Source: a virus. Taken from it: a DNA stretch of 64,000 bases. Below, piece by piece: positions 41,785 through 55,011 of the stretch; position 1 is the stretch's first letter, and each line of letters starts with the position of its first letter. Below the pieces are notes generated by a model. The model was given only the letters and a program-made list of their open reading frames with translations. It made no database searches and was not told where the DNA came from. Made by a program: the position numbers and the translations under genes. The stretch spans positions 1-64,000 of the IMG/VR virus record IMGVR_UViG_3300036799_000043, one strand, 5' to 3'.

Positions 41785-41786
41785 TC

Positions 41787-42167
41787 ATGCCATCAGCAGC
41801 AACTCAATACGGCAAATCAGGCGACACGATCCCGCAATTTAGCGCAACACTACGTGACGCAGCCGGAGTGCCAGTTGCGCTACTTACAACTGATCTCGTG
41901 ACGTTCAAGCTGCGCGAGCGCATGTCAGCAGGCGCGTCAATGGGCGGTACTGCGACGATCATCGAGCCAGATATAGACGTTGCGACTGACCCAGACAATC
42001 CAAACCTTGGGCTAGTCGAGTACATACTGGCACCGGGTACTGTACTCACGCCTGGCGTGTATCTCGCAGAGTGGATGCTGCACTCTGTCAGCGGTCACGA
42101 AACGACGTTCCCAGACGTTGGCGCAGACACCGTGTATATCTCGCGTCGCTTGCCAGCACCCGCGTGA
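41787..42167 (+). CDS. BppU-like/Ig-fold virion protein
   Basis: 'K.GDT.P...ATL.D....V.L', 'G.VEY', 'G.Y.AEW', 'TFP'. Confidence 0.55.
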   Translation: MPSAATQYGKSGDTIPQFSATLRDAAGVPVALLTTDLVTFKLRERMSAGASMGGTATIIEPDIDVATDPDNPNLGLVEYILAPGTVLTPGVYLAEWMLHSVSGHETTFPDVGADTVYISRRLPAPA

Positions 42168-42178
42168 CGTTCTCGAAA

Positions 42179-42268
42179 GACGTTGCGGTACGCACTGGGC
42201 CATACTCCCCGGTCATATCACGAGACGTTGCAATACGTACTGGGCCATACTCTCCAGTCAGATCACGT
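42179..42268 (+). repeat. Two-copy 45-bp imperfect tandem repeat
   Basis: gacgttgcggtacgcactgggccatactccccggtcatatcacga / gacgttgcaatacgtactgggccatactctccagtcagatcacgt. Confidence 0.85.
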
Positions 42269-42452
42269 GACCATCGCTTTACGACTCGACGCTTGCGCTC
42301 TGTTAGTCAGTCGTGTAGACTGAGACTACACACGACAGAGCAGGGAGGGCGTGCATCAAAGAGTACGCAGCGATTGAACCAGTGATCCCAGCGCGTTGAA
42401 CGGGTCGTGGCTCTACCCGTAAACAGAGCCGATCAGAGACTAGGAGAATCAC

Positions 42453-42926
42453 ATGGCTGCAGAGACACTCAACAAAGTGATCTTCGGTGGACGCGTCGCA
42501 GCAGACGCCGAGATTCGCTACACACAAGACGGAAAACCAGTGTGCCACATTCGCTTCGTGCTCGGCAATCGAAAGAAGGGCGACGACGGCGAGTGGAAAG
42601 ACGATCCCATGTGGATGCGCGTGACGTGCTTTGGTCGCCTCGCTGAGCGCTATTCAGAGCGCCCGCTGCTCAAGGGCCAGCGCATCACCGTGATTGGCCG
42701 CATCGACACGCCGTACATCTACAACGGCGAGCGCGGTTCGGGCGTCAACATTAGCGTCGTCGCTGACGAGATCGCACGCTACGACTTCGACGAGAGCGCT
42801 CAGCGTGGCGGCAACGATGAGGAGTTTGAGGACGCTCGTCCAGCGCGTCAGCCTGCTGCCCAACGTAGTCAGCCAGCAAAGGCAGCGGCGCCGCCCGCAG
42901 ACGACCTGGATGATCTGCCATTCTGA
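42453..42926 (+). CDS. ssb: Single-stranded DNA-binding protein
   Basis: 'LNKVI..GRV.AD.EIRYT..G', 'KG....V.GR', acidic tail DDLDDLPF. Confidence 0.9.
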   Translation: MAAETLNKVIFGGRVAADAEIRYTQDGKPVCHIRFVLGNRKKGDDGEWKDDPMWMRVTCFGRLAERYSERPLLKGQRITVIGRIDTPYIYNGERGSGVNISVVADEIARYDFDESAQRGGNDEEFEDARPARQPAAQRSQPAKAAAPPADDLDDLPF

Positions 42927-42927
42927 G

Positions 42928-43890
42928 ATGAGTAAGAAGCACGCCAGCGGTTACCCAGCCACGCGCGAGCGTGTGTCCGCACAAGTCAAGTCGGTCGTCA
43001 GACTGCTTGACTTGGGCGTGGACGAAGCAGAGGCAGTACAGATCGTCAAAGACTATGGCTGCGAACGTGTGCATGAGCTTCTCGAACTGTCAGACTCACA
43101 ACTGTATGCCCCTGAGGGCGAAGGCGAGTCGGCACGCGCAAGCGCCGAATGTGCACTGCGCGCGTACATCAAGACGCAAGTCGACGCGACGCGCGACAAG
43201 CATCCGTGGCCGTATCAGTCAGTCTGCGATCTACTGCAGAAACACGGCGAAGTCTTCCGAGTCGAGTCGTACGCGAAGCAACCATATTCGCTCGGCAAGA
43301 TTGGCCGCTGCTACGCGAACGCGATTGATGCGGTGCTGCGCCGACCGACGCATCTGACGTACGTCGAAGGCTACGCACTGTCGCGATTGGGAGTGCCATT
43401 AGAGCACGCGTGGGTCGTCGACGACGCTGGCAAAGCGTGGGACGTTACATGGAAATGGTCAGAGCGCAGCGAGCATCACCGAGCAGACGAGAGTGCGCTC
43501 ATCGGCGTTCGTGTGCCTATCAACGCGCTGCAAGCTCACTGGAGGACGTGTGCTGGCGCGGCGTTTCTCGAAGATAGGCGGCATCACTTTCCAGCGCTGC
43601 GGGTGCCGTATTCCGCCTGGTCAGACGTGCTCGTTGACGAGCTTGCGCAGATACGCGAGAAACACTGTCTGCCAATCGTTGCGTCAGGAAAGGCAGTCGA
43701 AGACGAAATGTCCGGGATGATAAACACACTCGTTCCGGGTGCTGTCGTGTGTACGCGGTGCAACACTCAGATTCTCAAGGATGAGAAGCGTATGTGGATA
43801 ACAGACGTGACAGACGGTACGCAGTCGAGAGTATGCGAGCCGTGTGGTTTGACGGTTGCGGCGCGCTACAACGTGCCGCTAGTCGAATGA
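42928..43890 (+). CDS. Hypothetical protein with transglutaminase/papain-like C-H-D motif
   Basis: 'CYANA...YVEGYA...EHAW..D....DVTW'. Confidence 0.5.
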   Translation: MSKKHASGYPATRERVSAQVKSVVRLLDLGVDEAEAVQIVKDYGCERVHELLELSDSQLYAPEGEGESARASAECALRAYIKTQVDATRDKHPWPYQSVCDLLQKHGEVFRVESYAKQPYSLGKIGRCYANAIDAVLRRPTHLTYVEGYALSRLGVPLEHAWVVDDAGKAWDVTWKWSERSEHHRADESALIGVRVPINALQAHWRTCAGAAFLEDRRHHFPALRVPYSAWSDVLVDELAQIREKHCLPIVASGKAVEDEMSGMINTLVPGAVVCTRCNTQILKDEKRMWITDVTDGTQSRVCEPCGLTVAARYNVPLVE

Positions 43891-44543
43891 CGTTTGGTCA
43901 GAGCGCTGGTGTGGCGGTGAGCATAGCTGTTATCACTGCGGTATATGCTGTCGCGTGCTCAGCGCCAGTCACTCATCCAGAAGCGGCACCGACGCCATAC
44001 CCCGAGACTGCAGCTATCGGTGTCGCGACGTACTTTGCTCGCGACGCCGAGCACCCGGAGCAGATCGTCGTGCAAGACGTGAACTCTGCGCAGAGCGAGA
44101 TCGTCACCGCCATGTACAGCTTCACGTACAAGCCAATCTGGGACGCGTACGTCGCAGCAGTCAAGCGTGGCGTAGCAGTGACGCTGCTGACAGATCAGAC
44201 CGAGCTACGCGGCAATGCTGCACAGACGAGCGGTGTTGCGTCGCTGTGTGCGCTCGGCGTCAAAGTGCGCGAGAACGTGCCGAAAGGTCGCGCGCTCGAA
44301 CATCTCAAGCTGAGCGTGATTGATAAGCGCATCGGCTTGGTTGGTAGCTTCAACTACACAGTCAGTGCCGTCTTGACGAATGACGAGATACTCATCAGAG
44401 TCGCGTCACCGCTCTACGCTGCAGACTGGCGCACTCACATCCTCAAGATGTATTCAGACTCGACGTATTCGCGCGACGCGTGCTCGCTCGTCTCACCGAG
44501 CACACCGACAGCGACAGACAACGCCTCAGACGGCGGCGAGTAA
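43887..44543 (+). CDS. Phospholipase-D-superfamily (Nuc-like, single HKD) probable lipoprotein
   Basis: HLKLSVID-KRIGLV-GSFN matches HxK(x4)D(x6)GSxN; hydrophobic N-terminus ending AVAC. Confidence 0.8.
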   Translation: MTFGQSAGVAVSIAVITAVYAVACSAPVTHPEAAPTPYPETAAIGVATYFARDAEHPEQIVVQDVNSAQSEIVTAMYSFTYKPIWDAYVAAVKRGVAVTLLTDQTELRGNAAQTSGVASLCALGVKVRENVPKGRALEHLKLSVIDKRIGLVGSFNYTVSAVLTNDEILIRVASPLYAADWRTHILKMYSDSTYSRDACSLVSPSTPTATDNASDGGE

Positions 44544-44634
44544 CAAAGGTCACAAAGCTGGCAAAACTCTTGCGATTTATGTAGTCAGCACTGCATACTC
44601 AGTAAGTCACACACGACGAAGGAGAAACAGAACG

Positions 44635-45105
44635 ATGTACGCAAGCGATGCAGTAATCAAGTTCTTGCCAGCGACCGAAACGATTGCCGTTGCCAATGAG
44701 ATCGTCAATCGACTTGGCCGACTCAACGAAGACGTGTCGGCAACAGACGTGTTCGCGACGTACGACGCGATGAAACGAGAGCAGTTCACCGCAAGCGTGC
44801 AGGCTGCGCTCAATCAGGGCAACCACACGAGCGCGCAGCGCTGCAACAATCAAGTACAGCACATCATCGACAGCATCGCTGCTGACAGCTTCACGACCGT
44901 GACGCTCAGCGGTTGCCGCAAACCAGCGTACTGGCTGCATCGCAACAAGTTTGACAATCGCGTGATCGTGTCTGATCGCAAGGGCATTCGCATGCAAGCG
45001 AGTGTCGATGGCGAGAATGGCGCCGCGGGTCGCGACTACGTGTCTAGCTTGCTCGGCAAGAAGCTCGCAGAGGGAGCGCGAGTCGATCAGGGCGTGAGCT
45101 TCTGA
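44635..45105 (+). CDS. Hypothetical protein
   Basis: Promoter, ACACGAC box and AAGGAG upstream. Confidence 0.6.
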   Translation: MYASDAVIKFLPATETIAVANEIVNRLGRLNEDVSATDVFATYDAMKREQFTASVQAALNQGNHTSAQRCNNQVQHIIDSIAADSFTTVTLSGCRKPAYWLHRNKFDNRVIVSDRKGIRMQASVDGENGAAGRDYVSSLLGKKLAEGARVDQGVSF

Positions 45106-45131
45106 TCGATGTCACAAAGATGGCTAAAGTC

Positions 45132-45161
45132 TTGTTTGTCGAATAGTCAGCGCTGTATAGT
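45132..45161 (+). promoter_or_regulatory. Phage promoter with CAGCGCTG (leaderless gene)
   Basis: TTGTTT...CAGCGCTG-TATAGT; ATG 6 nt later. Confidence 0.65.
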
Positions 45162-45167
45162 GGACGC

Positions 45168-45356
45168 ATGAACACGACGAGCGAGCAGCAGCCAGTCTTC
45201 CAGACTCGACACTTTCACATCTACAACTGGAACAATCGGGTTGTCTTCGCGTGTGTCAGCGCGACACGTATCGAAGCTGGCAAGATGCACGGTGGGATTC
45301 GGGAAGTGCGCAGCGAGCGTGACAAGTGCGCGCTGCGACGAAAGCTGGAGGCGTAA
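45168..45356 (+). CDS. Small hypothetical protein (MNTTS...)
   Basis: Leaderless start. Confidence 0.5.
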   Translation: MNTTSEQQPVFQTRHFHIYNWNNRVVFACVSATRIEAGKMHGGIREVRSERDKCALRRKLEA

Positions 45357-45358
45357 TC

Positions 45359-45673
45359 ATGAGCACACCGCTAACCACAGACGAGATCACCGCGATTCGT
45401 GCCGATCTGAAGGCGAACGGCCTGAGCCGCATCGTCAACATGCGCGTCAACAAGCAGCAGTACGCGGCTGGCAGCATCTCACTCTACCCAAGCATCGCGA
45501 CCAGATCGAATTCCTACAGATGGAGTGCGCGCGAGTTTCCGCTTGTTTTCGAGTTTGTGCGTAAGCACAATCTTGGGGCGATCAACGGCACCGACTATTA
45601 CGTGCACGATCTCGGCCACGTCGAGACGGTGTACGGTGCGGGCTTCGCGTTCATCGCACGTAAGACAGACTGA
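45359..45673 (+). CDS. Hypothetical protein
   Basis: SD GGAGG. Confidence 0.55.
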   Translation: MSTPLTTDEITAIRADLKANGLSRIVNMRVNKQQYAAGSISLYPSIATRSNSYRWSAREFPLVFEFVRKHNLGAINGTDYYVHDLGHVETVYGAGFAFIARKTD

Positions 45674-45834
45674 TGAACTTCTGGTACGTGCTCGCGAAGC
45701 TCTTGAGTCTGCATCGCGACGTGCGCGCGCTGCAGCGTGGGCCCGATGCGTTCGCGCGTCGACAGCTTCGCAAGTCGCTGTATCGCACAACTGGCCGGCA
45801 GATCAATTCACTCACACGACGGAGACGAGCATGA
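45673..45834 (+). CDS. Small basic protein (53 aa, MNFWYVLAKLL...)
   Basis: TGATG and ATGA overlaps on both sides; below the track cutoff. Confidence 0.5.
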   Translation: MNFWYVLAKLLSLHRDVRALQRGPDAFARRQLRKSLYRTTGRQINSLTRRRRA

Positions 45835-46370
45835 GCGATAACCCATTCGAGCGCGCACAAGCTGCGCAGAAAATGACGAGCGCAGAGACGCCCATGGATC
45901 TGATGGAGGCGGCGAAGTACTCAAACCCACGTCTCAGCGAGCTTGTTGCGGCGAACCTCGACCTGTCGCTGCAGGCGATCAGACTCGCTGAGACATCAGC
46001 GAAGCAGTCAACGAACATGGTCAATCAGATGACACTGCAGCGCGTTGCCGAGAAGCTCAAGAGTGCACTGCATCAAGCAGCACACCCGCAGGCAGCCGCT
46101 CAGGCACAGCAGCTTGCAGAGGATGACGTTCTCGTCGTCGAAGTCAGAAAGACGGCTCAGGCGCGTCTTGACGCGATCTCGCAGTCAGAGCAGCGTAAGT
46201 ACTGGTTCGACGGCGTGCCGAAGCTCGTCGAGCTTGAGGTCGAGATCAATCGCGACCTCGTCGAGCCGCTTGTGGCGTCGGGTCGTATCAACAAAGGACT
46301 TGTGCGCATCTGGGTTGGCCCGAATCACGTGCTCGCAGTGCATCATGTCGCACTGGAGGTCGCAGCATGA
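45831..46370 (+). CDS. Hypothetical protein
   Basis: SD GGAG; coupled. Confidence 0.55.
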   Translation: MSDNPFERAQAAQKMTSAETPMDLMEAAKYSNPRLSELVAANLDLSLQAIRLAETSAKQSTNMVNQMTLQRVAEKLKSALHQAAHPQAAAQAQQLAEDDVLVVEVRKTAQARLDAISQSEQRKYWFDGVPKLVELEVEINRDLVEPLVASGRINKGLVRIWVGPNHVLAVHHVALEVAA

Positions 46371-46621
46371 GCCGACGTGTGCGCTACATGCTGATGCTGC
46401 AAGCAGTCGTGTTGCTGTTCTCTGGCTACGTGTGGGGGTCGCTCGTGCAGCGCTTGATTGACGGCATTCTCTGGGGCACAGCGCAGACTAACGACGAGAT
46501 AGACAACTGGAAGCTCTTACTGTTTTCCGGTGGCTTCGTCGTCGTGCTCGTCGTGTTTCTGATTGCGCGCAAAGTGTTCCAGAAAATGCTTGACGCTCAA
46601 GTGCGCAGTGCTGTAGACTGA
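46367..46621 (+). CDS. Two-TM membrane protein
   Basis: Two hydrophobic helices. Confidence 0.55.
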   Translation: MSRRVRYMLMLQAVVLLFSGYVWGSLVQRLIDGILWGTAQTNDEIDNWKLLLFSGGFVVVLVVFLIARKVFQKMLDAQVRSAVD

Positions 46622-46625
46622 GACT

Positions 46626-47009
46626 ATGAGCACGACGACACAGCGACAGCAGCTTGCCGCTCTGCGACCCAGTGGCGAAGCCTACAAGCATCACACGTAT
46701 TGGTTCGCAGACGTTCGCAATGGTCGCAGTCACGCGTGTGACTGCCCGGACTACTTTCACCGCAACATCGTTGCCGGCGAGCCTTCGCACCTGTGTCGAC
46801 ATCTGCGCGAGCTTGCAATCGTCGCGATGCAAGCGATCCACAGTGCAGTGAACACCGCGCGCGACGGTAACGTCGACGAGATCGCAGACGCACTGGGAAT
46901 TCCGCACCCAGTGTTCCACGCGTACCAGTCTGTCTACGTTGACGGCAAGCTCGACGACACAGCAGCAATTCGCTATGCGCGTAGCTCGCACATGCGGCTC
47001 GTGTCATGA
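46626..47009 (+). CDS. SWIM zinc-finger protein
   Basis: CDCPDY...CRH; leaderless after a TTGACG...CAGTGCTG-TAGACT promoter. Confidence 0.65.
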   Translation: MSTTTQRQQLAALRPSGEAYKHHTYWFADVRNGRSHACDCPDYFHRNIVAGEPSHLCRHLRELAIVAMQAIHSAVNTARDGNVDEIADALGIPHPVFHAYQSVYVDGKLDDTAAIRYARSSHMRLVS

Positions 47010-47215
47010 ACTGGCAAGACGAGTACAAGCGCTGGGCGATCTACCGTGAAGCGATCCGACACGGTTTCTACGATGATTGGTCTATCGCTGACACTGCGCT
47101 GATCGAGCGCGTGCTGAGGTGTCCGATCAAAATCGAGCAGACTATCGATGAGCTTGAATTCGATGCAGTCGTGCTTGAATTGCCAGTTGTCGTAGACAAC
47201 GTTCTGGTTCAGTAG
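47006..47215 (+). CDS. Hypothetical protein
   Basis: ATGA overlap. Confidence 0.45.
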   Translation: MNWQDEYKRWAIYREAIRHGFYDDWSIADTALIERVLRCPIKIEQTIDELEFDAVVLELPVVVDNVLVQ

Positions 47216-47247
47216 AGCCACCAATACACGACAAGGAGACTTACCCA

Positions 47248-47916
47248 GTGACTTCTCGACTTCGTATCGCCCTTGCATTCGCGCTACTGCTCGCTGTGGT
47301 GTTCCCAGCGGCGTCTGCGTTCGCGTGGACGTGTCAGCCGGGCGTAAAGGACACGCCCGCTAACGAGCAGGCAGGACTCTGCGTTTTGCATCCAACACCG
47401 ACCCAAATCCCGACGACTGCACCTACTCCGCAGCCGACAGTGCAAACACCTGCACCGACCCCGCCGATTGTCGTCGTACCCACGTCAGCGCCGCCCGTGA
47501 GCGCACCGCCGCAGACCAATACGAGCAGCGCGCCGAGCTTTGAGAACATCTGCGTCACGAGTGTGAGCGACAACGTGCAGCACACGGACATCGTGCGCAC
47601 GAGCGACGCCAATGCGTATCTCGCGCAGCACGCTAACGCATATCACATGCCAGACATCGGCAACTGCGGACCGACAGACGTGTACTTGCAGACTGCAAAG
47701 CCGACTGTGGCGATCACGCCCGTCCCCGTCACAGCGACGCCAGTAGCAACTGTCGAGTCGACGCCCGCGCCAACTGTGACGCCAGAAGCGACGCCGACTG
47801 CTACTGCTACGCCAGTTATGACGACGCCGACTGCGACGCCAGAAGTCGTCGAGACACCAGTACCCGCTGTGCCTGACACGGGCGACGGAACTGCCGCCGA
47901 TGAGATCGCTCCTTAG
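47248..47916 (+). CDS. Secreted Pro/Thr-rich protein with C-terminal VPDTG sortase-type motif
   Basis: Signal peptide (AFA-W); PT-rich linkers; ends VPDTGDGTAADEIAP. Confidence 0.75.
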   Translation: MTSRLRIALAFALLLAVVFPAASAFAWTCQPGVKDTPANEQAGLCVLHPTPTQIPTTAPTPQPTVQTPAPTPPIVVVPTSAPPVSAPPQTNTSSAPSFENICVTSVSDNVQHTDIVRTSDANAYLAQHANAYHMPDIGNCGPTDVYLQTAKPTVAITPVPVTATPVATVESTPAPTVTPEATPTATATPVMTTPTATPEVVETPVPAVPDTGDGTAADEIAP

Positions 47917-48367
47917 CATCACCGCAGCGCTGCTTGTCGCGGTGCTCAGCGTGTCGAGCGCCTACGCTGACGATCTGACTGTCTCGATCCCAGACATCAG
48001 CGTCAGCGCAGCGACAGAGCGACTGGGTGTCGTCGATGACGTGCTCAGCGCTCCAGACGATCCCGACTCGCTCGGCGTATTCGAGTTTGGCGAGCAGACG
48101 ATCATTGCCGGTCACCGAGACTGGCAGTATCGTCTGCGCGCTTTCTCTCGCCTGGATCAGCTACAGCAAGGCGCAGAGGTCGACTTGAGTGACGGTCGCA
48201 GCTACAGCGTCGACTCGACTGCGGTGCTCGACGTAGACGACGCAGACGCGTGGTCGAGCTATCTGACTGGTGACGACTCGCTCGTACTCGTAACGTGTAC
48301 AGGCCCGTTCTCCTTGAGTCGACACGAGTACTTGCAGCGCTTCGTCGTGCTCGCGTTGCCAAATTAG
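47900..48367 (+). CDS. Class F sortase
   Basis: 'TIIAGHRD', 'AF..L..L..G', 'LVLVTC.GPF', 'Y..R.VV.A' give the His-Cys-Arg triad. Confidence 0.88.
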   Translation: MRSLLSITAALLVAVLSVSSAYADDLTVSIPDISVSAATERLGVVDDVLSAPDDPDSLGVFEFGEQTIIAGHRDWQYRLRAFSRLDQLQQGAEVDLSDGRSYSVDSTAVLDVDDADAWSSYLTGDDSLVLVTCTGPFSLSRHEYLQRFVVLALPN

Positions 48368-48370
48368 TAC

Positions 48371-48399
48371 TTGCGCTGCGATATGCAGTGCTGTATAGT
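48371..48399 (+). promoter_or_regulatory. Phage promoter with CAGTGCTG (leaderless gene)
   Basis: TTGCGC-17 nt-TATAGT; ATG 7 nt later. Confidence 0.75.
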
Positions 48400-48406
48400 G
48401 AGAGCA

Positions 48407-48631
48407 ATGAACACGACGACAGAGATCAAGCGCACGACACTCACCGCTACAGCCGCAGCCAAGCTGCACTGCTCGCAGACCCACCGCTGCACCGACAGCG
48501 TTGTGGTCGTGCTGAGCTACCAGTTCGCAGACGGCGCTCGGCTCAACCACTACCCACTGTGCGAGTCGCATCAGGGCGACTATTCGCGCGACAGCCAAAC
48601 GCTGCGCGCAATCAAGGAGATCGTGCGATGA
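48407..48631 (+). CDS. Small hypothetical protein (MNTTT...)
   Basis: Leaderless start. Confidence 0.55.
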   Translation: MNTTTEIKRTTLTATAAAKLHCSQTHRCTDSVVVVLSYQFADGARLNHYPLCESHQGDYSRDSQTLRAIKEIVR

Positions 48632-49125
48632 GCAGCGTTCTGCCAGCGATGCCGAAGAACGCGATCCAGCGCAGCAAGCTCGAACTCGACGCAGAGAAAG
48701 CAGCGCGCAAGTCGCTTGAGGACAGCATCACCAATCTGCGTTCGCTGATGCACAGCGACAAGTTCCGCGAGAACCCGTACGTCAACATCGTCGACATCCT
48801 GACGTGGGCAGAGCAAGCGATGAGTGCTGCGAGCGACGCCGAGTCTGCTTCGTACGCAGTCGGCCGTATGCGCCAAGCTGTGTACAGCAACATCACTACA
48901 GCGCTCGACACGAACGGCGCCAACGCTCTGTACAAAGTCGACGCGTTCGCTCTCGAAGGACCTGAGACGCGCACTGTGTACGTGCTCAAGTCAGATGTCG
49001 AATTCGCGCTTGAAGTGCTGCGCGCTGATGGCATCTACTATCGCGCCGAACTGAGCGAATGGGAAGATGCACGACCGTGGGAGCGCGAAGGTCGCTGGCT
49101 CTACGCACAGTCGGTGACGCTGTGA
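48628..49125 (+). CDS. Hypothetical protein
   Basis: SD AAGGAG; ATGA overlap. Confidence 0.55.
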   Translation: MSSVLPAMPKNAIQRSKLELDAEKAARKSLEDSITNLRSLMHSDKFRENPYVNIVDILTWAEQAMSAASDAESASYAVGRMRQAVYSNITTALDTNGANALYKVDAFALEGPETRTVYVLKSDVEFALEVLRADGIYYRAELSEWEDARPWEREGRWLYAQSVTL

Positions 49126-49460
49126 AGCACGAACAGACCGAATACACGCTCGGGCCTGCGCCAACCTTTTACCATCACGCGCACTGCTCGTGCGGCTGGA
49201 GAAGTAAGGGCAGAGGTCACGTTGAGACTGTGCGGCGAGACTGGGAGCAGCACGAGCGAGAATCCAACTTGCCGAAGCTCGTCGAAGGCGAGTGCTCGTG
49301 GTGCTGTGAGCGGTCTGCGCGTTGCGTCGAATTCTTCTCCGGACTGTCGTACGCGCGACTGTGCCCAGACTGCATCAAGCGCATGCACAAGCGTAACAAC
49401 CAGCTTGCGACAGCAGATCGTCACGTGCGCTATGCGGAGAGGGCTGGACATGCCAGATAG
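49122..49460 (+). CDS. Cys-rich hypothetical protein
   Basis: CSCGW, CSWC, CPDC. Confidence 0.5.
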   Translation: MKHEQTEYTLGPAPTFYHHAHCSCGWRSKGRGHVETVRRDWEQHERESNLPKLVEGECSWCCERSARCVEFFSGLSYARLCPDCIKRMHKRNNQLATADRHVRYAERAGHAR

Positions 49461-49788
49461 GGTGCAGTCAATGGAAGGCATGATGCTCGAAGCTGAGCAG
49501 CACGCGGCGCGCAACGAAGCCGACAAACAGGCCCTTGAGCGCATTGTCGAGAACCGACGACAAGCGTTGCAGATCGCAGAGACGAAGTGGACGGAAGTGC
49601 GCGATGGTCTTGTGTTGCAGCTACAGTGCTGCACAGGACCTCGTGACAACTTCGCGCTGCCGAGTGTCGTTGCGCACAGCGCAGACAAGCTCAATCAGTG
49701 GTTGACAGCCTACGATCAAGCGAGTGAGGAATACTACGCCGCACGACGGGCGCTGCGCTGCTTGAGAGGGGAGCCAGAAGATAGCTAA
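49450..49788 (+). CDS. Hypothetical coiled-coil protein
   Basis: SD-like GAGG; overlap-coupled. Confidence 0.5.
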   Translation: MPDRVQSMEGMMLEAEQHAARNEADKQALERIVENRRQALQIAETKWTEVRDGLVLQLQCCTGPRDNFALPSVVAHSADKLNQWLTAYDQASEEYYAARRALRCLRGEPEDS

Positions 49789-49803
49789 CGTTAGACTGTC
49801 AAC

Positions 49804-50301
49804 GTGAGCGAACCAGCAGCGAGCGACGTTGTAGAGGCGTTTTGCGACGCGCTCGCTATTGCGGTCAGATACGCCACAAGAGCGCAGCGAATATATCTGC
49901 GCATCAATGGGAAGCGAGGAACCGGAACAGTGGTAGATATTCCTGATGATCGCGCATTCGGCCTTGTCGTCGACTTTGAAGACAAATTTGGCGAACAGGC
50001 GCGCGAGCCGGGCGCAGTCACTTTCAGCAGCGACCAGACTGATCTCGTCACGATCACGCCGAACACGATGCTTGACGCCGACGGCAATGTCGTGCCCGCA
50101 ACTGACGACATGCACGCGACTGCTATGGCGAACGCCGGCAGCGGCAGCTTCAATCTGTTCGCGAGCAGCGGCACGCTGAATCTCGAAACGCCCGAGGCGT
50201 GCAACATCGTCGCTGGTTCTGCGGTGACCGGCCACGTGGTCGTCGAATTGACGCAACCCGCTGCGTCGTCGGCACATCACCGCACTCACAAGGACAAGTA
50301 G
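49804..50301 (+). CDS. Hypothetical beta-rich protein (start possibly 49930)
   Basis: Ig-like composition; followed by a hairpin at about 50307-50334. Confidence 0.45.
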   Translation: MSEPAASDVVEAFCDALAIAVRYATRAQRIYLRINGKRGTGTVVDIPDDRAFGLVVDFEDKFGEQAREPGAVTFSSDQTDLVTITPNTMLDADGNVVPATDDMHATAMANAGSGSFNLFASSGTLNLETPEACNIVAGSAVTGHVVVELTQPAASSAHHRTHKDK

Positions 50302-50352
50302 CTCACAGGCGTCGCAGTTTATCTGCGGCGCCTTCTCTGACACACACGACGA

Positions 50353-50844
50353 ATGGTGGGGCCACCGATGAGTGACTTATTGATCGAGCGCGCGACACAC
50401 GACGATTACTGGCTTATTCAGCAGATTGTAGAGTCTGCAAATTTGCCATCAGACAATGTGCATTCGACACCGTTTCTGATTGCGCGCAAAGATCAAATAC
50501 CAGTAGGCGTGATTGGCTACAGTATCGAGAGAGAGGGCTGGGTGCATGTGCGCTCACTCAGCGTACGTAAGTCGTTTCGGCGTCAAGGTATTGGCGAAGC
50601 ACTGATACAAGCGCTCGTGGACTATCTCAAGACGCGCGATGACGCAACGGTGTTGATCGTTATGTGCATGTACTGGAACATTCGTTTCTACAAGAATCGA
50701 GGTTTTCAGCGCATCTCGTCGCAGGCGAAGCAACACGATCCAGTCGCAGCGCTTGAGGAACATTCGCACTGCACGTGCTTCGCTCTGCGACTACAGCAGC
50801 CTATTGAGGACGTGCTCGCGCCGCAGATGCTAAATGCCAAGTAG
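50353..50844 (+). CDS. GNAT-family N-acetyltransferase
   Basis: 'VRSLSV...RRQGIGEALI', 'FYKNRGF'. Confidence 0.85.
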   Translation: MVGPPMSDLLIERATHDDYWLIQQIVESANLPSDNVHSTPFLIARKDQIPVGVIGYSIEREGWVHVRSLSVRKSFRRQGIGEALIQALVDYLKTRDDATVLIVMCMYWNIRFYKNRGFQRISSQAKQHDPVAALEEHSHCTCFALRLQQPIEDVLAPQMLNAK

Positions 50845-51421
50845 GCCACCGCTACCCGACAGTGACGCTGCGTACGTTTGCCGTAACCATCACACGGACG
50901 AGCTTGTCAGCGGCGCATTGTTCTCTCAAAACAACGAGCATCGATACGCGCTCTGGCGCATGTGGGGAGACGGTGCGTACGTGCTGTTTTGCGGATTGAA
51001 CCCGTCGACTGCTGACGATCTCAAGAACGATCCGACGTGTACGCGTGAAGTGAACTGGGCGCGAGCATGGGGCTTCGATGGCTTCGTCAAAGTGAACTGG
51101 GGCAGCTATCGCTCGACGAGTCCGCTCGTGCTCAAGGGTCTTGGGCCTGACACTGCGACTGGTGGGTTATTCAACGATATCGCGTTGATCCACTACGCTC
51201 GTCAGGCCGCGCTCGTCGTGGTGTGTTGGGGCGTACACGGTGCGCTCTGGCAGCACGGTAGGAAGGTCGTCAGAGCATTGCAGACGTGGGACGTGCAGCC
51301 ATACGCGTTTCACTTCTATCGCGCTGGTAAGCGTTACGCAGAGGTGGCAAACGGTGAGCCTCGTCACACGCTGTACCTGCCAAATTCTGCTCGACTGCAC
51401 GCGTATCAAACGCGCCTCTAA
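50834..51421 (+). CDS. DUF1643 family protein
   Basis: 'RYALWR.W', 'GLNPSTAD...DPT', 'VVVCWG', 'EPRH.LY'. Confidence 0.85.
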   Translation: MPSRPPLPDSDAAYVCRNHHTDELVSGALFSQNNEHRYALWRMWGDGAYVLFCGLNPSTADDLKNDPTCTREVNWARAWGFDGFVKVNWGSYRSTSPLVLKGLGPDTATGGLFNDIALIHYARQAALVVVCWGVHGALWQHGRKVVRALQTWDVQPYAFHFYRAGKRYAEVANGEPRHTLYLPNSARLHAYQTRL

Positions 51422-51476
51422 CGCCACGCTGATGCTGCTCTGATACGAGATGTCGCATTCTGATGTACGTAAACAG

Positions 51477-51669
51477 ACCGGGGTAGCTCAGTTGGTAGAG
51501 CACGGAGCGGGTACAAGTCGACACGATGAGCGCGCAGAGCACGTAGCTAGTGCCGAGCAGACTCAAAGCGAGAATTCGCGGCCCTTGCCGAAGCCAGACA
51601 CGTTTGCAAGCGTGCGCGGAACAGGGAAAGAAACCTCCGAGGTCGTGGGTTCAAGTCCTGCCCCCGGTG
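51477..51669 (+). tRNA. tRNA-like gene with a 127-nt structured insert in place of the anticodon loop (identity uncertain)
   Basis: Acceptor ACCGGGG/CCCCGGT, D arm GCTC-AGTTGGTA-GAGC, anticodon stem CGGAG/CTCCG, variable AGGTC, T arm GTGGG-TTCAAGT-CCTGC; no encoded CCA. Confidence 0.75.
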
Positions 51670-52118
51670 CTAGATCGAGAGCAGGCGTACAGCTTCGCTG
51701 GCGTCAAGCTCTTGGCAGAGCAGAGTGCCCGTACGCGTACCGCTGGGTGCTGCCACTCGGTCGCTTCGGCTCGATCAGGCTGCATCAGTGGTTGCGATCA
51801 GACGACGAGCGCGCAGCGCACGATCACCCGAGCGACTTTCTGACGCTCGTGCTGTTCGGCGGCTACGTCGACGCGCTTGAGCATGCAGACGGCTCGCAGA
51901 GTTACGACAGACTAGCTGTCGCAGCGGTGCGCTACAGACGCGCTGAGCACCGTCACAGAGTCGTCCTGACGCATTCCCCAACGTGGACACTGCTGTACTT
52001 TGCGCCCGCGCGTCGTGACTGGGGTTTCTACAAGCGTCGAGCGATCGGTGGCTTTCGCTTTCTTCGGCAACACAAGTGGTTCGCGAGCTTCGGTCACCAT
52101 CCGTGCGACCAGCAGTGA
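51645..52118 (+). CDS. Cupin-fold phage protein (start uncertain)
   Basis: 'IRLH....SD.....HDHP..F.TLVL.GGY', 'RRAEHRHRV', 'WTL....R.WGF'. Confidence 0.65.
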   Translation: MGSSPAPGARSRAGVQLRWRQALGRAECPYAYRWVLPLGRFGSIRLHQWLRSDDERAAHDHPSDFLTLVLFGGYVDALEHADGSQSYDRLAVAAVRYRRAEHRHRVVLTHSPTWTLLYFAPARRDWGFYKRRAIGGFRFLRQHKWFASFGHHPCDQQ

Positions 52119-52217
52119 CGCGTCCGTAATGTTTAGCTCTTGTCTAAGCAGCCGTGATTACACATACTGCGCTCGCTGACAGCGAAGACTGTCAAGCACA
52201 CGACTAAGGAGCGAACG

Positions 52218-52682
52218 ATGTTTCGCACAATCTCTCGCACTGTCACTGTTCTCGCCGCCGCTGCAGTTCTCGCCGCCTTCGCTGTTGCACCCGCGTCAGC
52301 GTATATGCCAACGCAGAGCGACTATCTGCATCTCGACAACTTCAACCTGAAAGCTCAAGACGTTGGCGGCAATAACTGGCTGACGCTGGGTGATCTCAAG
52401 ACGACTCGCTATGCCGTAGTGCGAGCCACGAACGTCAAAGGCGCTGCCGGCGTGACTATGACGCTCTGGGTGAGCGGTCGCGAGGACAAGCTTTACGTGC
52501 AGAACAACCAGACCGTGCTCGTCGACTTCGGCAAGTACATCAACACTGACACGTTCACCGAGATGCAGATGCAGTTCCCGCGCGGCACTCAGGTGACCAA
52601 CGTCACGCTCGACGTGTACGCAGTGTCGAGTGGCTTCTTCTCTGCTATCGCTGCGCCGACGCCAGCGCCGTACGTTCCCTAG
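52218..52682 (+). CDS. Secreted protein of unknown function
   Basis: Ala-rich signal peptide ending APASA; SD TAAGGAG. Confidence 0.65.
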   Translation: MFRTISRTVTVLAAAAVLAAFAVAPASAYMPTQSDYLHLDNFNLKAQDVGGNNWLTLGDLKTTRYAVVRATNVKGAAGVTMTLWVSGREDKLYVQNNQTVLVDFGKYINTDTFTEMQMQFPRGTQVTNVTLDVYAVSSGFFSAIAAPTPAPYVP

Positions 52683-52701
52683 CTTTCAGCGCTCGCGTCA
52701 C

Positions 52702-52737
52702 AAAACGCCACGAGTCTTCGGATTCGTGGCGTTTTCT
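52702..52737 (+). terminator. Intrinsic terminator with cUUCGg loop
   Basis: aaaacgccacgagtc-ttcg-gattcgtggcgtttt. Confidence 0.8.
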
Positions 52738-52777
52738 ATTGCGCTCGCAGTATGCAGCACTGTATATTGAAAGAGTC

Positions 52778-53620
52778 ATGAACACGACGACGCGAACAGA
52801 TGTCCACTCACCGAAGAACCTCATCACTGAGGACTACGAACTCGTCAACTGCTTCGACAACCAGACTGCCTGGGCAATCACTGAGTACGGCTTGACGATC
52901 TCGCGCAAGCTGCACGCTGATGACGAGCTTGGTCGCGGTGCGAACCAGTGCCACCACTGCGGCGCTCACATTCGCTACTTTGCAGTGCTTGAGCACACGC
53001 CGACCGGCAAGTACATCGTTGCTGGCGAGACCTGCGTCGACAATCGATTCTCGCGAGCGACCGCTGACTTCCAGCGCCTCCGCAAGCAAGCTGAGCTAGA
53101 TCGCGCGCAGCAGCGCATCAAGCGAGCGCTCGAACAGTTCGCCGCTGACAACAGCGATGTTGCGTTTCTCGCGACTGGCGAGCTTCCGGAGAGCATCTCG
53201 TGGAACAACTTCGTGAGTGACATCTCGCGCAAGCTGCGCATGTACGGCGAGATCAGCACTCGTCAACTGACCGCCGTTCGCGACGCCATCCAGCGCGCCG
53301 AGCAGCAGAACGCAGAGCGCGCCGCTCGCAAAGCAGCCGAAGCGACGCAGATCACGAGCGATGTCGTTGAGGGCCGCATCGAGATCAGCGGCGAAGTGCT
53401 CTCGACCAAGTGGATCGAAAGCCAGTTCGGTAGCTCACTCAAGATGCTCGTACGCGACGCTCGTGGCTTCAAAGTCTTCGGCAGTGTCCCGAGCAGCATC
53501 AGCGCGAATCGTGGCGACCGCGTTCGCTTCGTCGCGACAGTCGAGCGCTCGCGCGACGACTCGCAGTTTGGATTCTTCTCTCGCCCGAGCAAAGCAGCGG
53601 TCATTACGACCGCTGCGTAG
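52778..53620 (+). CDS. Conserved phage protein with Zn-ribbon and C-terminal OB-fold-like domain
   Basis: CHHCG...GETC; 'G.V.S.K...S.FG...KMLV', 'GFFSRP.K'; promoter TTGCGC...TATATT just upstream. Confidence 0.65.
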   Translation: MNTTTRTDVHSPKNLITEDYELVNCFDNQTAWAITEYGLTISRKLHADDELGRGANQCHHCGAHIRYFAVLEHTPTGKYIVAGETCVDNRFSRATADFQRLRKQAELDRAQQRIKRALEQFAADNSDVAFLATGELPESISWNNFVSDISRKLRMYGEISTRQLTAVRDAIQRAEQQNAERAARKAAEATQITSDVVEGRIEISGEVLSTKWIESQFGSSLKMLVRDARGFKVFGSVPSSISANRGDRVRFVATVERSRDDSQFGFFSRPSKAAVITTAA

Positions 53621-53679
53621 CTTGCACGTGAGTTAGCAGTAGAGTAGACTGAGACTACACACGACAAGGAGACAGTCAG

Positions 53680-53826
53680 ATGCCTAAACTCGAACGCGCC
53701 GCTCGCCGCGACGCACGCGAAAAAGCCGAACCACGCCGCAACGTGCACCAGAAGTCGGCTCGGCGCCGACAACTGCGCCGCTCAAGCGTCATGCGACTTA
53801 CGGCCGCTTACGGCCGAGCCGCATGA
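53680..53826 (+). CDS. Small Arg-rich protein (48 aa)
   Basis: SD AAGGAG after promoter and ACACGAC box; ATGA overlap with the next gene. Confidence 0.5.
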   Translation: MPKLERAARRDAREKAEPRRNVHQKSARRRQLRRSSVMRLTAAYGRAA

Positions 53827-54026
53827 CGAGCATCGATAAGCTCCCGAATGCACTCGTCGAAGCAGCGCGCCAGACTCTCGGCGTCGACGCTGGCGACACA
53901 AGCCGCGACGCACTGATTGAGAGTATGAACGCGCGCACGCTCGTCAGCAAGTACACACAGTGGCATCTTGGCGATAGATCATGGGGCACGGCCATCTACG
54001 ACTACATCAAGGAGATCGAGCCGTGA
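53823..54026 (+). CDS. Hypothetical protein
   Basis: Coupled. Confidence 0.5.
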   Translation: MTSIDKLPNALVEAARQTLGVDAGDTSRDALIESMNARTLVSKYTQWHLGDRSWGTAIYDYIKEIEP

Positions 54027-54307
54027 CACTCAACTATCAGCCAATCCCGAGTGTCAGTGGCAATGGCTACACCGCGCTCACACTGCGCGAACCAGGCGAA
54101 TGGTTCGACCAGCCGACGTGGTTCGTGTTCGTGGGAGGTTGCGGTGTTGCGCAGACCACGACACAAGCTGACGCCGAGCGCGAGCTACTCGCGCGCGCTG
54201 TTAGCTACTGTGACCGACACATCGCGTACGCCAAGACGCAGATTGAGCACTACGAGCGTCAGAAACGGGTGCTGCAATCGAATGGACTGATAAGGCAGGT
54301 TGACTGA
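54023..54307 (+). CDS. Hypothetical protein
   Basis: SD AAGGAG; GTGA overlap. Confidence 0.5.
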   Translation: MTLNYQPIPSVSGNGYTALTLREPGEWFDQPTWFVFVGGCGVAQTTTQADAERELLARAVSYCDRHIAYAKTQIEHYERQKRVLQSNGLIRQVD

Positions 54308-54507
54308 GTGGCTTCCGGCAATATCGACGATCCAGAATTCACGTTCAACGATCTAGTCGACTGGGCGGCGAGCTACTTGCTGATCGAACTGATAGCTGGT
54401 CGCTTCCGTCAGGGTGTTTGGATGGTGTGTTCACAGTCCGTACGTTGGCGAGCGATGCGCAGTGATGAGGCTGTTGGCGCAAATATGTCGTGGACGAAGA
54501 AAGTCAA

Positions 54508-54861
54508 ATGACCGACGACGAGCGCATGTCACTCGACGAGCTACAGCGCCTCATGCAAGCGCATCAGGCTGAGTGGGTAATCATCCCCGAACAGAAGCTA
54601 GACGAGCTTGGCATTGTCGACTACACGAGTCTCAACACGACCATAAGCTCGTCGCGCGAACTGCTGTGTCGTGAGTGCTTTATCGCGACACGATCCATCG
54701 TGGTTGCGGCGTGGCCGTGTACGACGCACAAGCTGCTCGCGCGTAACCAGGAGATGACCGAATTGGTACAGCGCTTGTGGGGAGCGGTGCATCACTTGGA
54801 TCGTGAGAATCCCTTTATACGCCAGGCATACGAGCACCTCGGGCTACACGTCGAGCGCTGA
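54508..54861 (+). CDS. Hypothetical protein
   Basis: CREC...WPC.T motif. Confidence 0.5.
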   Translation: MTDDERMSLDELQRLMQAHQAEWVIIPEQKLDELGIVDYTSLNTTISSSRELLCRECFIATRSIVVAAWPCTTHKLLARNQEMTELVQRLWGAVHHLDRENPFIRQAYEHLGLHVER

Positions 54862-55011
54862 AAATGGAGCATCAATGTCGATAACGCTTGTGTTTCCAGA
54901 CTGGCCAGCGTGGGTCTACGTAGTCGTTGTTGCCCTGTTGGTACTCATTGGCTCGATAGGTGAGCAGATCGGGCGTGATCTGTACGACTTTTTCGCTCGA
55001 CGCGTACGACG

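What the first reader, a model, noticed from the sequence alone, without database searches (positions are those of the whole stretch)
47248..48367. Phage-encoded class F sortase with its own adjacent VPDTG substrate
Seen: a secreted Pro/Thr-rich protein (two Cys pairs) ending VPDTG-DGTAADEIAP overlaps a gene with the full sortase His/TC/Arg triad. The pair is preceded by an ACACGAC box and SD. Known: sortases cleave LPxTG-like motifs and normally need a following TM helix and basic tail; they are host enzymes and I do not recall them as usual phage genes. Here the substrate lacks the TM anchor and the sortase N-terminus looks like a cleavable signal (AYA-D). Inference: a phage system that covalently decorates the infected cell surface (receptor masking or exclusion) by an anchor-independent route.
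Basis: partly seen in the sequence, partly recalled or inferred. Interest (0 to 1): 0.78.

Follow-up and report, generated by a model that had tools for sequence, protein, structure and literature searches.

The report
Phage sortase with anchor-less private substrate
An uncultured 111-kb soil phage carries a two-gene module taken from Chloroflexota bacteria, a small exported protein-stapling enzyme (sortase) and the one exported protein built to be its target; the target's recognition tag lacks the usual membrane anchor, which makes this a rare and easily testable variant of a well-known cell-surface anchoring system.

Summary
ORF A (47248-47916) is a secreted Pro/Thr-rich protein with two Cys pairs, ending VPDTG-DGTAADEIAP. 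It overlaps by 17 nt ORF B (47900-48367), a 155-aa protein with the sortase fold and the His72/Cys133/Arg147 triad. ORF B is only class-F-like: 44.8 bits against a cut-off of 166.

The same coupled pair, with the same 17-nt overlap, recurs in nine soil Chloroflexota loci. The conserved tag is P-x-[A/T]-G-D-G-[T/S]-x-A-D-[E/D]...P-stop, never followed by a hydrophobic segment. Its codons vary synonymously, so the constraint is on the protein. The nearest outside relative is a Chloroflexota surface protein with LPNTGDGS twice, just before a fused sortase domain. Each genome holds one tag.

Best reading: a host-derived sortase plus dedicated substrate, adapted to the phage's composition and gene-start signals. 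Surface decoration is plausible. Receptor masking is untested.

Anchor-less dedicated pairs (AbpA-SrtB) and phage sortase-substrate modules (a 2026 preprint) are already described, and this scan has noted similar phage pairs on other DNA. No second phage carrying this pair was found.

The parts
47226..47238 (+). ACACGAC box directly followed by the AAGGAG Shine-Dalgarno site, 9 nt before the GTG start of ORF A
   Evidence: Sequence. The identical 13-mer recurs at 53659. ACACGAC precedes the SD of many genes of this phage and is enriched, 38 against 22 expected.
47248..47916 (+). ORF A, 222 aa: the secreted Pro/Thr-rich partner and presumed substrate
   Evidence: Homologous partners sit upstream of the sortase in nine other loci. 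No Pfam, NCBIfam or PHROG family matches.
47248..47325 (+). Predicted Sec signal peptide of ORF A (residues 1-26, ...ASAFA|W)
   Evidence: AFA|W is conserved in all full-length partners. The cleavage site is inferred from the -3/-1 rule; no predictor was available.
47551..47667 (+). Cys-bracketed module C102-x37-C140, with invariant Leu, His and Met
   Evidence: The C-x37-C spacing is kept in 10 of the 12 module copies found (C-x36-C in L009, C-x40-C in L011). Alignment A4 has invariant C, L, H, M, C. AF2 pLDDT 82.4. No structural match, best Z 3.3. Found only in this partner family.
47869..47913 (+). C-terminal tag V208-P-D-T-G-D-G-T-A-A-D-E-I-A-P222. The presumed cut is between T211 and G212. 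No hydrophobic segment or basic tail follows.
   Evidence: Invariant P209, G212, D213, G214, A217, D218 and P222 in A3. Synonymous codon variation with fixed residues. The same core, LPNTGDGS, lies before a fused sortase domain in L022/L052. One copy per genome.
47900..47916 (+). 17-nt overlap between the end of ORF A and the start of ORF B (translational coupling)
   Evidence: The same 17-nt overlap is present in all nine related loci.
47900..48367 (+). ORF B, 155 aa: a small exported class-F-like sortase
   Evidence: Pfam Sortase 46.1 bits. Class F is the best NCBIfam hit but sub-threshold. AF2 pLDDT 89.8, pTM 0.81. All top Foldseek hits are sortases. It nests inside a clade of small Chloroflexota-type sortases.
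47900..47968 (+). Signal-peptide-like N-terminus of the sortase (residues 1-23, ...SSAYA|DD)
   Evidence: A short hydrophobic stretch followed by a small-x-small site is conserved in the sub-family. One member (P0019) has a twin-arginine signal. Cleavage is inferred.
48113..48115 (+). Catalytic His72 (CAC)
   Evidence: Invariant in A1 and A2. Aligns to the GH motif of solved sortases.
48296..48298 (+). Catalytic Cys133 (TGT) in LVTCTG
   Evidence: Invariant in A1 and A2. Aligns to the TC motif of solved sortases.
48338..48340 (+). Catalytic Arg147 (CGC) on the last strand
   Evidence: Invariant in A1 and at least 90% conserved in A2. It lies on predicted strand 143-154, which follows the Cys strand.

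Best explanation
The pair is a self-contained, translationally coupled two-gene cassette that originated in soil Chloroflexota and now sits in a phage genome.

Both products are exported. ORF B is a minimal sortase of about 130 residues once mature, probably soluble after signal-peptide cleavage. ORF A is its single dedicated substrate: one or two small disulfide-bracketed modules held on Pro/Thr-rich stalks, ending in an extended tag x-P-x-[T/A]|G-D-G-[T/S]-x-A-D-[E/D]...P.

Proposed mechanism, which is inferred:
1. Cys133 attacks the bond after Thr211, releasing the acidic 11-residue tail GDGTAADEIAP.
2. This forms a thioacyl enzyme.
3. The intermediate is resolved by an envelope amine, most likely a peptidoglycan stem peptide, so the protein is fixed to the wall of the infected cell.
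4. The strongly conserved prime-side residues take over the job that the hydrophobic anchor and basic tail normally do, which is to bring substrate and enzyme together.

Shown: sortase fold and triad; conservation of the pair, the tag and the overlap; protein-level constraint on the tag; one tag per genome; adaptation of the pair to the phage.
Inferred: the cut site, the acceptor, cleavage of the enzyme's signal peptide, and any benefit to the phage.
For: - Sortase domain, fold and triad.
- Partner plus sortase with a 17-nt overlap in nine other loci, at least one of them flanked by cellular genes in a Chloroflexota MAG.
- Tag residues are invariant while their codons vary synonymously, and the sortase frame upstream of its Met is not conserved.
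- The same core motif, LPNTGDGS, occurs twice just before a fused sortase domain in the nearest outside relative. It is absent from 35 other distant sortase loci.
- Exactly one tag in the phage genome and one in MAG G001.
- The Pro/Thr stalk directly before the tag matches the usual layout of wall-anchored proteins (established knowledge).
- The sub-family enzymes have export signals, one of Tat type.
- The phage copy has phage-like GC3 (0.66 and 0.71, against 0.74-0.80 in the cellular partner genes) and the phage's own ACACGAC-SD start context.
- The phage sortase nests within the cellular clade (100/99; sister group 89/82).
- Experimental precedent for a dedicated sortase acting on a tag without an anchor: AbpA-SrtB (PMC4974636).
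Against: - No biochemical data exist for any member.
- Most relatives have Ala, not Thr, at the presumed P1 position, which is unusual for sortases.
- A soluble enzyme and a soluble substrate are hard to reconcile with membrane-bound lipid II as acceptor.
- No conserved Lys, nor an N-terminal Gly or Ala, is available as an obvious alternative nucleophile.
- The pair was found in no other phage, so selection for a phage function is not shown.
- Cleavage of the enzyme's signal peptide is only inferred. If it is not cleaved, the enzyme is a normal membrane-tethered sortase on a very short linker.
Confidence: 0.6

Rival explanations
1. Processing only. The sortase acts as a dedicated endopeptidase (hydrolysis instead of transpeptidation) that matures ORF A or releases the highly conserved acidic 11-mer GDG[T/S]xAD[E/D]xxP as a diffusible peptide. 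Nothing is attached to the wall.
For: The prime-side, released part is the best-conserved stretch of the whole partner, unlike canonical sorting signals. Both proteins appear soluble. AbpA-SrtB also shows processing and release into the medium.
Against: In the fused relative only G-D-G-S is shared and the rest of the prime side differs, so a conserved bioactive peptide is not general. The Pro/Thr stalk before the tag fits wall spanning. Sortases hydrolyse poorly when an amine acceptor is present (established knowledge).
Confidence: 0.15
2. Polymerisation. The sortase joins ORF A subunits to each other, through the new N-terminus (conserved Trp after AFA) or through a side-chain amine, to build a covalent fibre, as pilus sortases do.
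For: Both termini of the partner are conserved (AFA|W and the tag). AbpA forms a SrtB-dependent ladder. An earlier scan note reports a T4SS-like operon about 20 kb downstream (untested here).
Against: No Lys is conserved: the window's protein has only K34 and K151, at positions not shared with relatives. No pilin motif or pilin-like fold was found. Trp is not a known sortase nucleophile. The T4SS genes are not adjacent.
Confidence: 0.1
3. Passenger DNA. The cassette is a recent or neutral capture of host genes with no role in the phage life cycle.
For: No other phage in GenBank or IMG/VR carries it. The cassette is rare and patchy even in Chloroflexota (a close homologue in 1 of 401 genomes). 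It is lost in some genomes, leaving a remnant.
Against: Both ORFs are intact with all conserved residues. Divergence from cellular copies is deep (at most 53% identity, branch length 0.94). GC3 is at phage level and the phage's own ACACGAC-SD leader precedes the pair. The 17-nt coupling is kept.
Confidence: 0.1
4. Not a substrate. The conserved tail of ORF A reflects only nucleotide constraints from the overlapping sortase start and ribosome-binding site, and ORF A is an unrelated co-transcribed secreted protein.
For: The last 17 nt are dual-coding, and the G-rich GDG codons lie where an SD for the sortase could be.
Against: Third codon positions of G, D, G, T and A vary among loci while the residues stay fixed, and the alternative frame is not conserved. 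The same peptide motif occurs inside a single ORF before a fused sortase domain, where no gene start exists.
Confidence: 0.05

Closest known systems
AbpA-SrtB pair of oral streptococci (Liang et al. 2016, PMC4974636)
   Same: A dedicated sortase is encoded next to one secreted substrate. The substrate's sorting signal has no hydrophobic domain or charged anchor (LPKTS followed by only AVK). Anchoring and processing were shown experimentally.
   Different: That enzyme is described as a distinct SrtB-type, membrane-associated sortase of Bacillota. The tag is LPKTS with a 3-residue tail rather than x-P-x-[T/A]-G-D-G-T-x-A-D-E with an 11-15 residue conserved acidic tail. It is not phage-borne.
Sortase B plus upstream substrate modules in gut huge phages (bioRxiv 10.64898/2026.10.24.761521)
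   Same: Phage-encoded sortase with a signal-peptide-bearing putative substrate immediately upstream, proposed to display proteins on the infected cell surface.
   Different: Those are class B enzymes related to Bacillota, in phages over 200 kb from animal guts. Their substrates have a complete canonical signal (PXTG, hydrophobic segment, basic tail). Here the enzyme is class-F-like and Chloroflexota-related, the phage is a 111-kb soil phage, and the substrate has no anchor.
Class F sortases (NCBIfam NF033748; P. acnes SrtF is the only characterised member) and the GVDTG_CTERM sorting domain (NF058571)
   Same: Class F is the best-scoring sortase class for the window's enzyme and for 41 of 42 relatives. 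The window's tag shares D-T-G with GVDTG. The physiological roles of class F enzymes are still unknown (PMC13251363).
   Different: It scores 44.8 bits against a cut-off of 166. It is much shorter than typical class F enzymes and lacks their membrane anchor and linker. NF058571 matches none of seven partners, nor the three genomes searched.
Chloroflexota surface proteins ending in a fused sortase domain (example L052, G349:C277)
   Same: Nearest sortase relative outside the sub-family (107 bits). The same extended motif, LPNTGDGS, precedes the enzyme, and no membrane anchor follows the motif.
   Different: Enzyme and substrate are one polypeptide of more than 1,212 aa with Ig-like repeats. In the window they are two genes, each with its own export signal.
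Class GN ('marine') sortase with its single adjacent target (TIGR03784)
   Same: One sortase, one dedicated neighbouring substrate. There is a weak HMM match (28.8 bits).
   Different: The score is far below the cut-off of 158. From my own knowledge, that system is proteobacterial and its target keeps a transmembrane anchor.

Membership tests
Sortase superfamily (Pfam PF04203) | HMM score above the gathering threshold | tested here: met
   46.1 bits against 26.6, E 5e-12.
Sortase superfamily (Pfam PF04203) | Eight-stranded sortase beta-barrel fold | tested here: met
   AF2 pLDDT 89.8. The listed Foldseek PDB matches (120 at E <= 0.001) are all sortases of classes A, C, D and E, with TM about 0.6.
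Sortase superfamily (Pfam PF04203) | Catalytic His-Cys-Arg triad | tested here: met
   H72 and C133 are invariant and R147 is at least 90% conserved. GH and TC align to solved sortases. Spatial geometry was not measured because no coordinates were available.
Sortase superfamily (Pfam PF04203) | Transpeptidase activity on its sorting motif | not testable with these tools
   Needs an enzyme assay.
Class F sortase (NCBIfam NF033748) | Score above the curated cut-off of 166 bits | tested here: not met
   44.8 bits. It is still the best class for 41 of 42 relatives.
Class F sortase (NCBIfam NF033748) | N-terminal membrane anchor plus linker before the catalytic domain | tested here: not met
   There is a short signal-peptide-like segment and about 8 residues before strand 1. 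Distant class-F-like hits do have a long anchor and linker.
Canonical cell-wall sorting signal (LPXTG, hydrophobic segment, basic tail) | Pentapeptide with Pro at position 2, Thr/Ala at 4, Gly at 5 | tested here: met
   VPDTG in the window; LPDAG, PPFAG, PPGAG, PPDAG and PPAAG in relatives.
Canonical cell-wall sorting signal (LPXTG, hydrophobic segment, basic tail) | [quoted passage not shown] | tested here: not met
   The motif is followed by 10-14 acidic or small residues and then the stop, in all 14 partners seen.
GVDTG_CTERM sorting domain (NCBIfam NF058571) | HMM match at or above 29 bits | tested here: not met
   No hit at E <= 10 in seven partners. No hit in G000, G001 or G002.
AbpA-SrtB-type anchor-less dedicated pair | Adjacent dedicated sortase and a substrate whose tag lacks a hydrophobic or charged anchor | tested here: met
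   The definition comes from PMC4974636.
AbpA-SrtB-type anchor-less dedicated pair | SrtB-type enzyme and LPKTS-AVK tag | tested here: not met
   The tag is V-P-D-T-G-D-G-T-A-A-D-E-I-A-P. The listed NCBIfam hits are class F, sortase_fam, GN, C and D, with no class B model among them.
Phage sortase-substrate module (huge-phage SrtB type) | Phage genome, with the substrate gene immediately upstream of the sortase gene | tested here: met
   Viral record with tail, replication and nucleotide-metabolism genes. Gene order.
Phage sortase-substrate module (huge-phage SrtB type) | Complete CWSS on the substrate; class B enzyme | tested here: not met
   compared with the description.

The most novel reading that the evidence does not exclude
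A clade of minimal, fully soluble secreted sortases recognises an extended two-sided tag (x-P-x-[T/A]|G-D-G-[S/T]-x-A-D-E) on a soluble substrate. Peptide recognition on the prime side replaces membrane tethering. A phage has captured this system to staple a protein of its own covalently onto the wall of infected Chloroflexota late or throughout infection, for example to block adsorption or to aid cell contact for its secretion machinery.
Probability: 0.3. Interest if true: 0.7.

Novelty: new variant of a known kind. Interest (0 to 1): 0.52.

Why it matters
- Sortases related to class F are widespread in high-GC and Chloroflexota bacteria, yet their substrates and roles are largely unknown: an Actinoplanes quadruple knockout had no phenotype (PMC13251363). 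Here a sub-family comes with its substrate attached genetically, one to one. The tag is defined from comparative data, and it is seen in both split and fused architectures.
- The enzyme is tiny and probably soluble, so the cut site, the acceptor and the role of the prime-side residues can be tested with a synthetic peptide.
- If the tag works without a membrane anchor, it is a second, independent example (after AbpA-SrtB) of anchor-free sorting, and a possible new ligation tool with a longer, more specific recognition sequence.
- For phage biology it extends phage-borne sortase-substrate modules from Bacillota gut phages to a soil Chloroflexota phage and to a different enzyme class.

Tried and rejected
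- Contexts of the protein hits on long contigs (for example P0005, 59 kb) could not be read, so contexts came from the search for related loci and the genome search.
- **Frameshift or fusion idea.** I asked whether the sortase's N-terminal helix is really the substrate's missing TM anchor. Rejected: the two-frame arrangement with a 17-nt overlap recurs in all loci, and in the sortase frame basic residues precede the hydrophobic stretch, which is signal-peptide order.
- **Tail conservation as an overlap or RBS artefact.** Rejected on synonymous variation and on the fused relative.
- **Cytochrome-b5-like reading of the Cys module.** There are only sub-threshold Pfam hits in three soil partners (E 3e-4 to 8e-3, below the gathering score), none in the window's protein. 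Foldseek and VIA-align gave no meaningful match (best Z 3.3). The conserved His and Met remain unexplained.
- **Homology searches on the partner.** The profile search was swamped by low-complexity words, with 2 hits. The protein atlas gave no usable hit.
- **Other phages.** No relative in IMG/VR by two pattern scans or in 50,697 GenBank phages by tblastn. No nucleotide match for 40000-55000. The IMG/VR scans rely on short peptide patterns and could miss divergent copies.
- **Lifestyle.** No integrase or recombinase was found in the record. The same loose first look also missed the sortase itself, so this is weak evidence.
- **Promoter and terminator scans** near the pair were at chance level.
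- **Extra substrates.** No canonical CWSS substrate is present in the phage genome.

Full report
**1. The observation**

The window is the first 64 kb of a 111,054-bp IMG/VR viral record, about 86% complete. It carries tail/baseplate genes, a primase-helicase, ThyX, a ribonucleotide reductase and a peptidase.

At the stated coordinates two plus-strand ORFs overlap by 17 nt.

ORF A (47248-47916, 222 aa):
- It starts with a signal-peptide-like segment ending AFA|W.
- It has Cys29/45 and Cys102/140 and long Pro/Thr-rich linkers.
- It ends AVPDTGDGTAADEIAP, with no hydrophobic segment.

ORF B (47900-48367, 155 aa):
- It passes the Pfam Sortase threshold (46.1 against 26.6 bits).
- His72, Cys133 and Arg147 are invariant or nearly so.
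- The model is confident (pLDDT 89.8), and all its PDB matches are sortases.

The ACACGAC box plus AAGGAG is real. The heptamer is over-represented (38 against 22). It stands directly before the Shine-Dalgarno site of many genes of this phage, and the whole 13-mer recurs at 53659. So the pair uses the phage's own gene-start context.

**2. A conserved cassette from Chloroflexota**

Sixteen proteins 40-53% identical to ORF B exist in public data.

Wherever DNA could be fetched with enough upstream sequence (nine loci: one Chloroflexota MAG and eight soil contigs), a homologue of ORF A lies upstream with the same 17-nt overlap. Four more partner proteins retrieved by sequence alone end in the same tail.

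The partners share:
- the AFA|W signal end;
- one or two modules bracketed by two Cys, C-x37-C in 10 of the 12 copies (C-x36-C in L009, C-x40-C in L011), with invariant Leu, His and Met;
- low-complexity stalks;
- an invariant C-terminal tag P-x-[A/T]-G-D-G-[T/S]-x-A-D-[E/D]...P-stop.

None has a hydrophobic segment after the tag.

In MAG locus L001 the neighbours are cellular genes: an MFS transporter, a TPR/transglycosylase protein and an ABC binding protein.

In L011 the cassette follows a PhnB-like gene. The 85%-identical gene in a second Chloroflexota MAG (L002) is followed only by a 37-residue 3' remnant of the sortase. So the cassette is chromosomal in Chloroflexota and is sometimes lost.

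Distribution in 401 sampled Chloroflexota genomes:
- Only one has a close homologue.
- Thirty-nine have more distant sortases. This tally includes the unpublished genomes G040 and G274; nothing else in the report rests on them.
- The distant ones have other neighbours and long membrane-anchored N-termini.

**3. Is the tail really a sortase tag?**

Three lines of evidence say yes.
1. Across loci the codons for G, D, G, T and A vary at synonymous sites while the residues stay fixed. The sortase-frame reading upstream of its Met is not conserved. The constraint is therefore on the partner protein, not on an RBS or the overlapping gene.
2. The nearest relative outside the sub-family (107 bits) is a Chloroflexota surface protein of more than 1,212 aa. 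It carries ALPNTGDGS twice, 40-60 residues before a fused C-terminal sortase domain, with no membrane anchor. The extended motif is absent from the other 35 distant sortase loci; shuffles give a mean of 0.24 hits.
3. The tag occurs exactly once in the phage genome and once in the 5.1-Mb MAG, each time in the gene next to the sortase.

The window's Thr at P1 is the exception; most relatives have Ala.

**4. The enzyme**

Class F is the best NCBIfam class for the window's protein and for 41 of 42 relatives. The score (44.8) is far under the cut-off of 166. Structure matches do not single out a class.

The sub-family is short (141-176 aa). It has a brief hydrophobic stretch followed by a small-x-small site, then only about 8 residues before strand 1. 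One member has a twin-arginine signal. A soluble exported enzyme is the likeliest reading, but cleavage is inferred.

**5. Phage or host DNA?**

The pair is flanked for tens of kb by phage genes.
- Its GC3 (0.66 and 0.71) matches phage genes (0.59-0.70) rather than the cellular partner genes (0.74-0.80).
- It has the phage's leader box.
- In a maximum-likelihood tree the phage sortase sits inside the sub-family clade (100/99), sister (89/82) to the group that includes the L011-type genes, on a long branch of 0.94.

This fits an old host-to-phage capture. The root of the tree is arbitrary, and most rows come from short contigs of unknown origin.

No other phage with the pair was found. Neighbours are small unknown ORFs, a PLD-like gene and a GNAT. 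There is no lysis cassette nearby.

**6. Mechanism and rivals**

Most likely (0.6): Cys133 cuts after Thr211, releasing GDGTAADEIAP, and passes ORF A to an envelope amine. The conserved prime-side residues substitute for membrane tethering.

Rivals:
- hydrolytic processing or peptide release (0.15);
- subunit polymerisation (0.1);
- neutral passenger DNA (0.1);
- not a substrate at all (0.05, largely refuted).

The proposed purpose, receptor masking or exclusion, is untested.

An earlier scan note reports a monoderm-type secretion operon about 20 kb downstream in this phage. I did not test that note, and the genes are not adjacent.

**7. What is known**

- Anchor-less dedicated pairs exist: AbpA-SrtB, with LPKTS followed by AVK, shown experimentally (PMC4974636).
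- Phage sortase B genes with canonical upstream substrates were reported in October 2026. That preprint says sortases had not been documented in viruses before.
- Class F roles remain unknown (PMC13251363, PMC8225981).
- NCBI's GVDTG_CTERM model, said in earlier notes to pair with class F enzymes, matches none of the partners or genomes here.
- This scan has repeatedly noted phage sortases with tail-less substrates on other, mostly actinobacterial, DNA. None shares sequence with this stretch.

**8. Verdict**

This is a real, intact, host-derived sortase-substrate cassette on a phage. Its tag and enzyme sub-family are not described in the sources I could search. It is a new variant of a known kind, of moderate interest, and directly testable in vitro.

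Noticed in passing
window 45168, 48404, 52778, 61306, 61700; also 64403, 66014, 66754, 77420 of the whole record: At least nine small ORFs start ATG-AAC-ACG-AC (Met-Asn-Thr-Thr/Ser...) behind a similar upstream string (for example AGTGAGAGCA or TTGAAAGAGTC). This is a second, coding context of the ACACGAC heptamer. It could be a paralogous small-gene family or a shared start-region signal.
   Followed up: partly
window 42310-42336 and 53644-53671: The 22-mer GTAGACTGAGACTACACACGAC occurs twice. At 42310-42336 it is part of an inverted repeat (GTCGTGT...ACACGAC) upstream of the ssb region. At 53644 it leads straight into AAGGAG and an ATG. It is a candidate phage promoter or operator element.
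   Followed up: no
L002:5950-6108 (Chloroflexota MAG DATGER010000063); similar 30-aa match in L013: A 37-residue 3' remnant of the small sortase (..LISCTGAFSISRHEYLQRVAVQAERTSK) sits just after a PhnB-like gene that is 85% identical to the gene preceding the intact cassette in L011. This is evidence of cassette loss at a syntenic site.
   Followed up: yes
L052 (G349:C277:2-3640): A surface protein of more than 1,212 aa: Pro/Thr stalk, many Ig-like repeats, ALPNTGDGS twice, then a complete C-terminal sortase domain and no membrane anchor. Enzyme and tag are on one chain.
   Followed up: partly
L008:499-501: The partner gene in this soil contig has an in-frame stop where relatives (for example P0173) have Tyr (AAYNK-Y-LKDHPG). 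It is either a pseudogene or a sequencing error.
   Followed up: partly
window 47248-47916: The public gene call for ORF A in the source record is only 139 aa (P0169, 100% identical over 63% of the ORF). That shorter call would lack the signal peptide and the first Cys pair.
   Followed up: no
window 47551-47667 and partner modules in L003-L011: The Cys-bracketed module has invariant Leu, His and Met, and an HPG(S/G)F string that gives sub-threshold Cyt-b5 hits in soil partners. Metal or haem binding is possible but unsupported by fold searches.
   Followed up: partly
window 43794-44540 and 50353-50841: A PLD-like single-HKD protein (PF13091, E 4e-21) and a GNAT acetyltransferase (E 4e-15) lie within 4 kb of the pair, among unknown small ORFs.
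   Followed up: no
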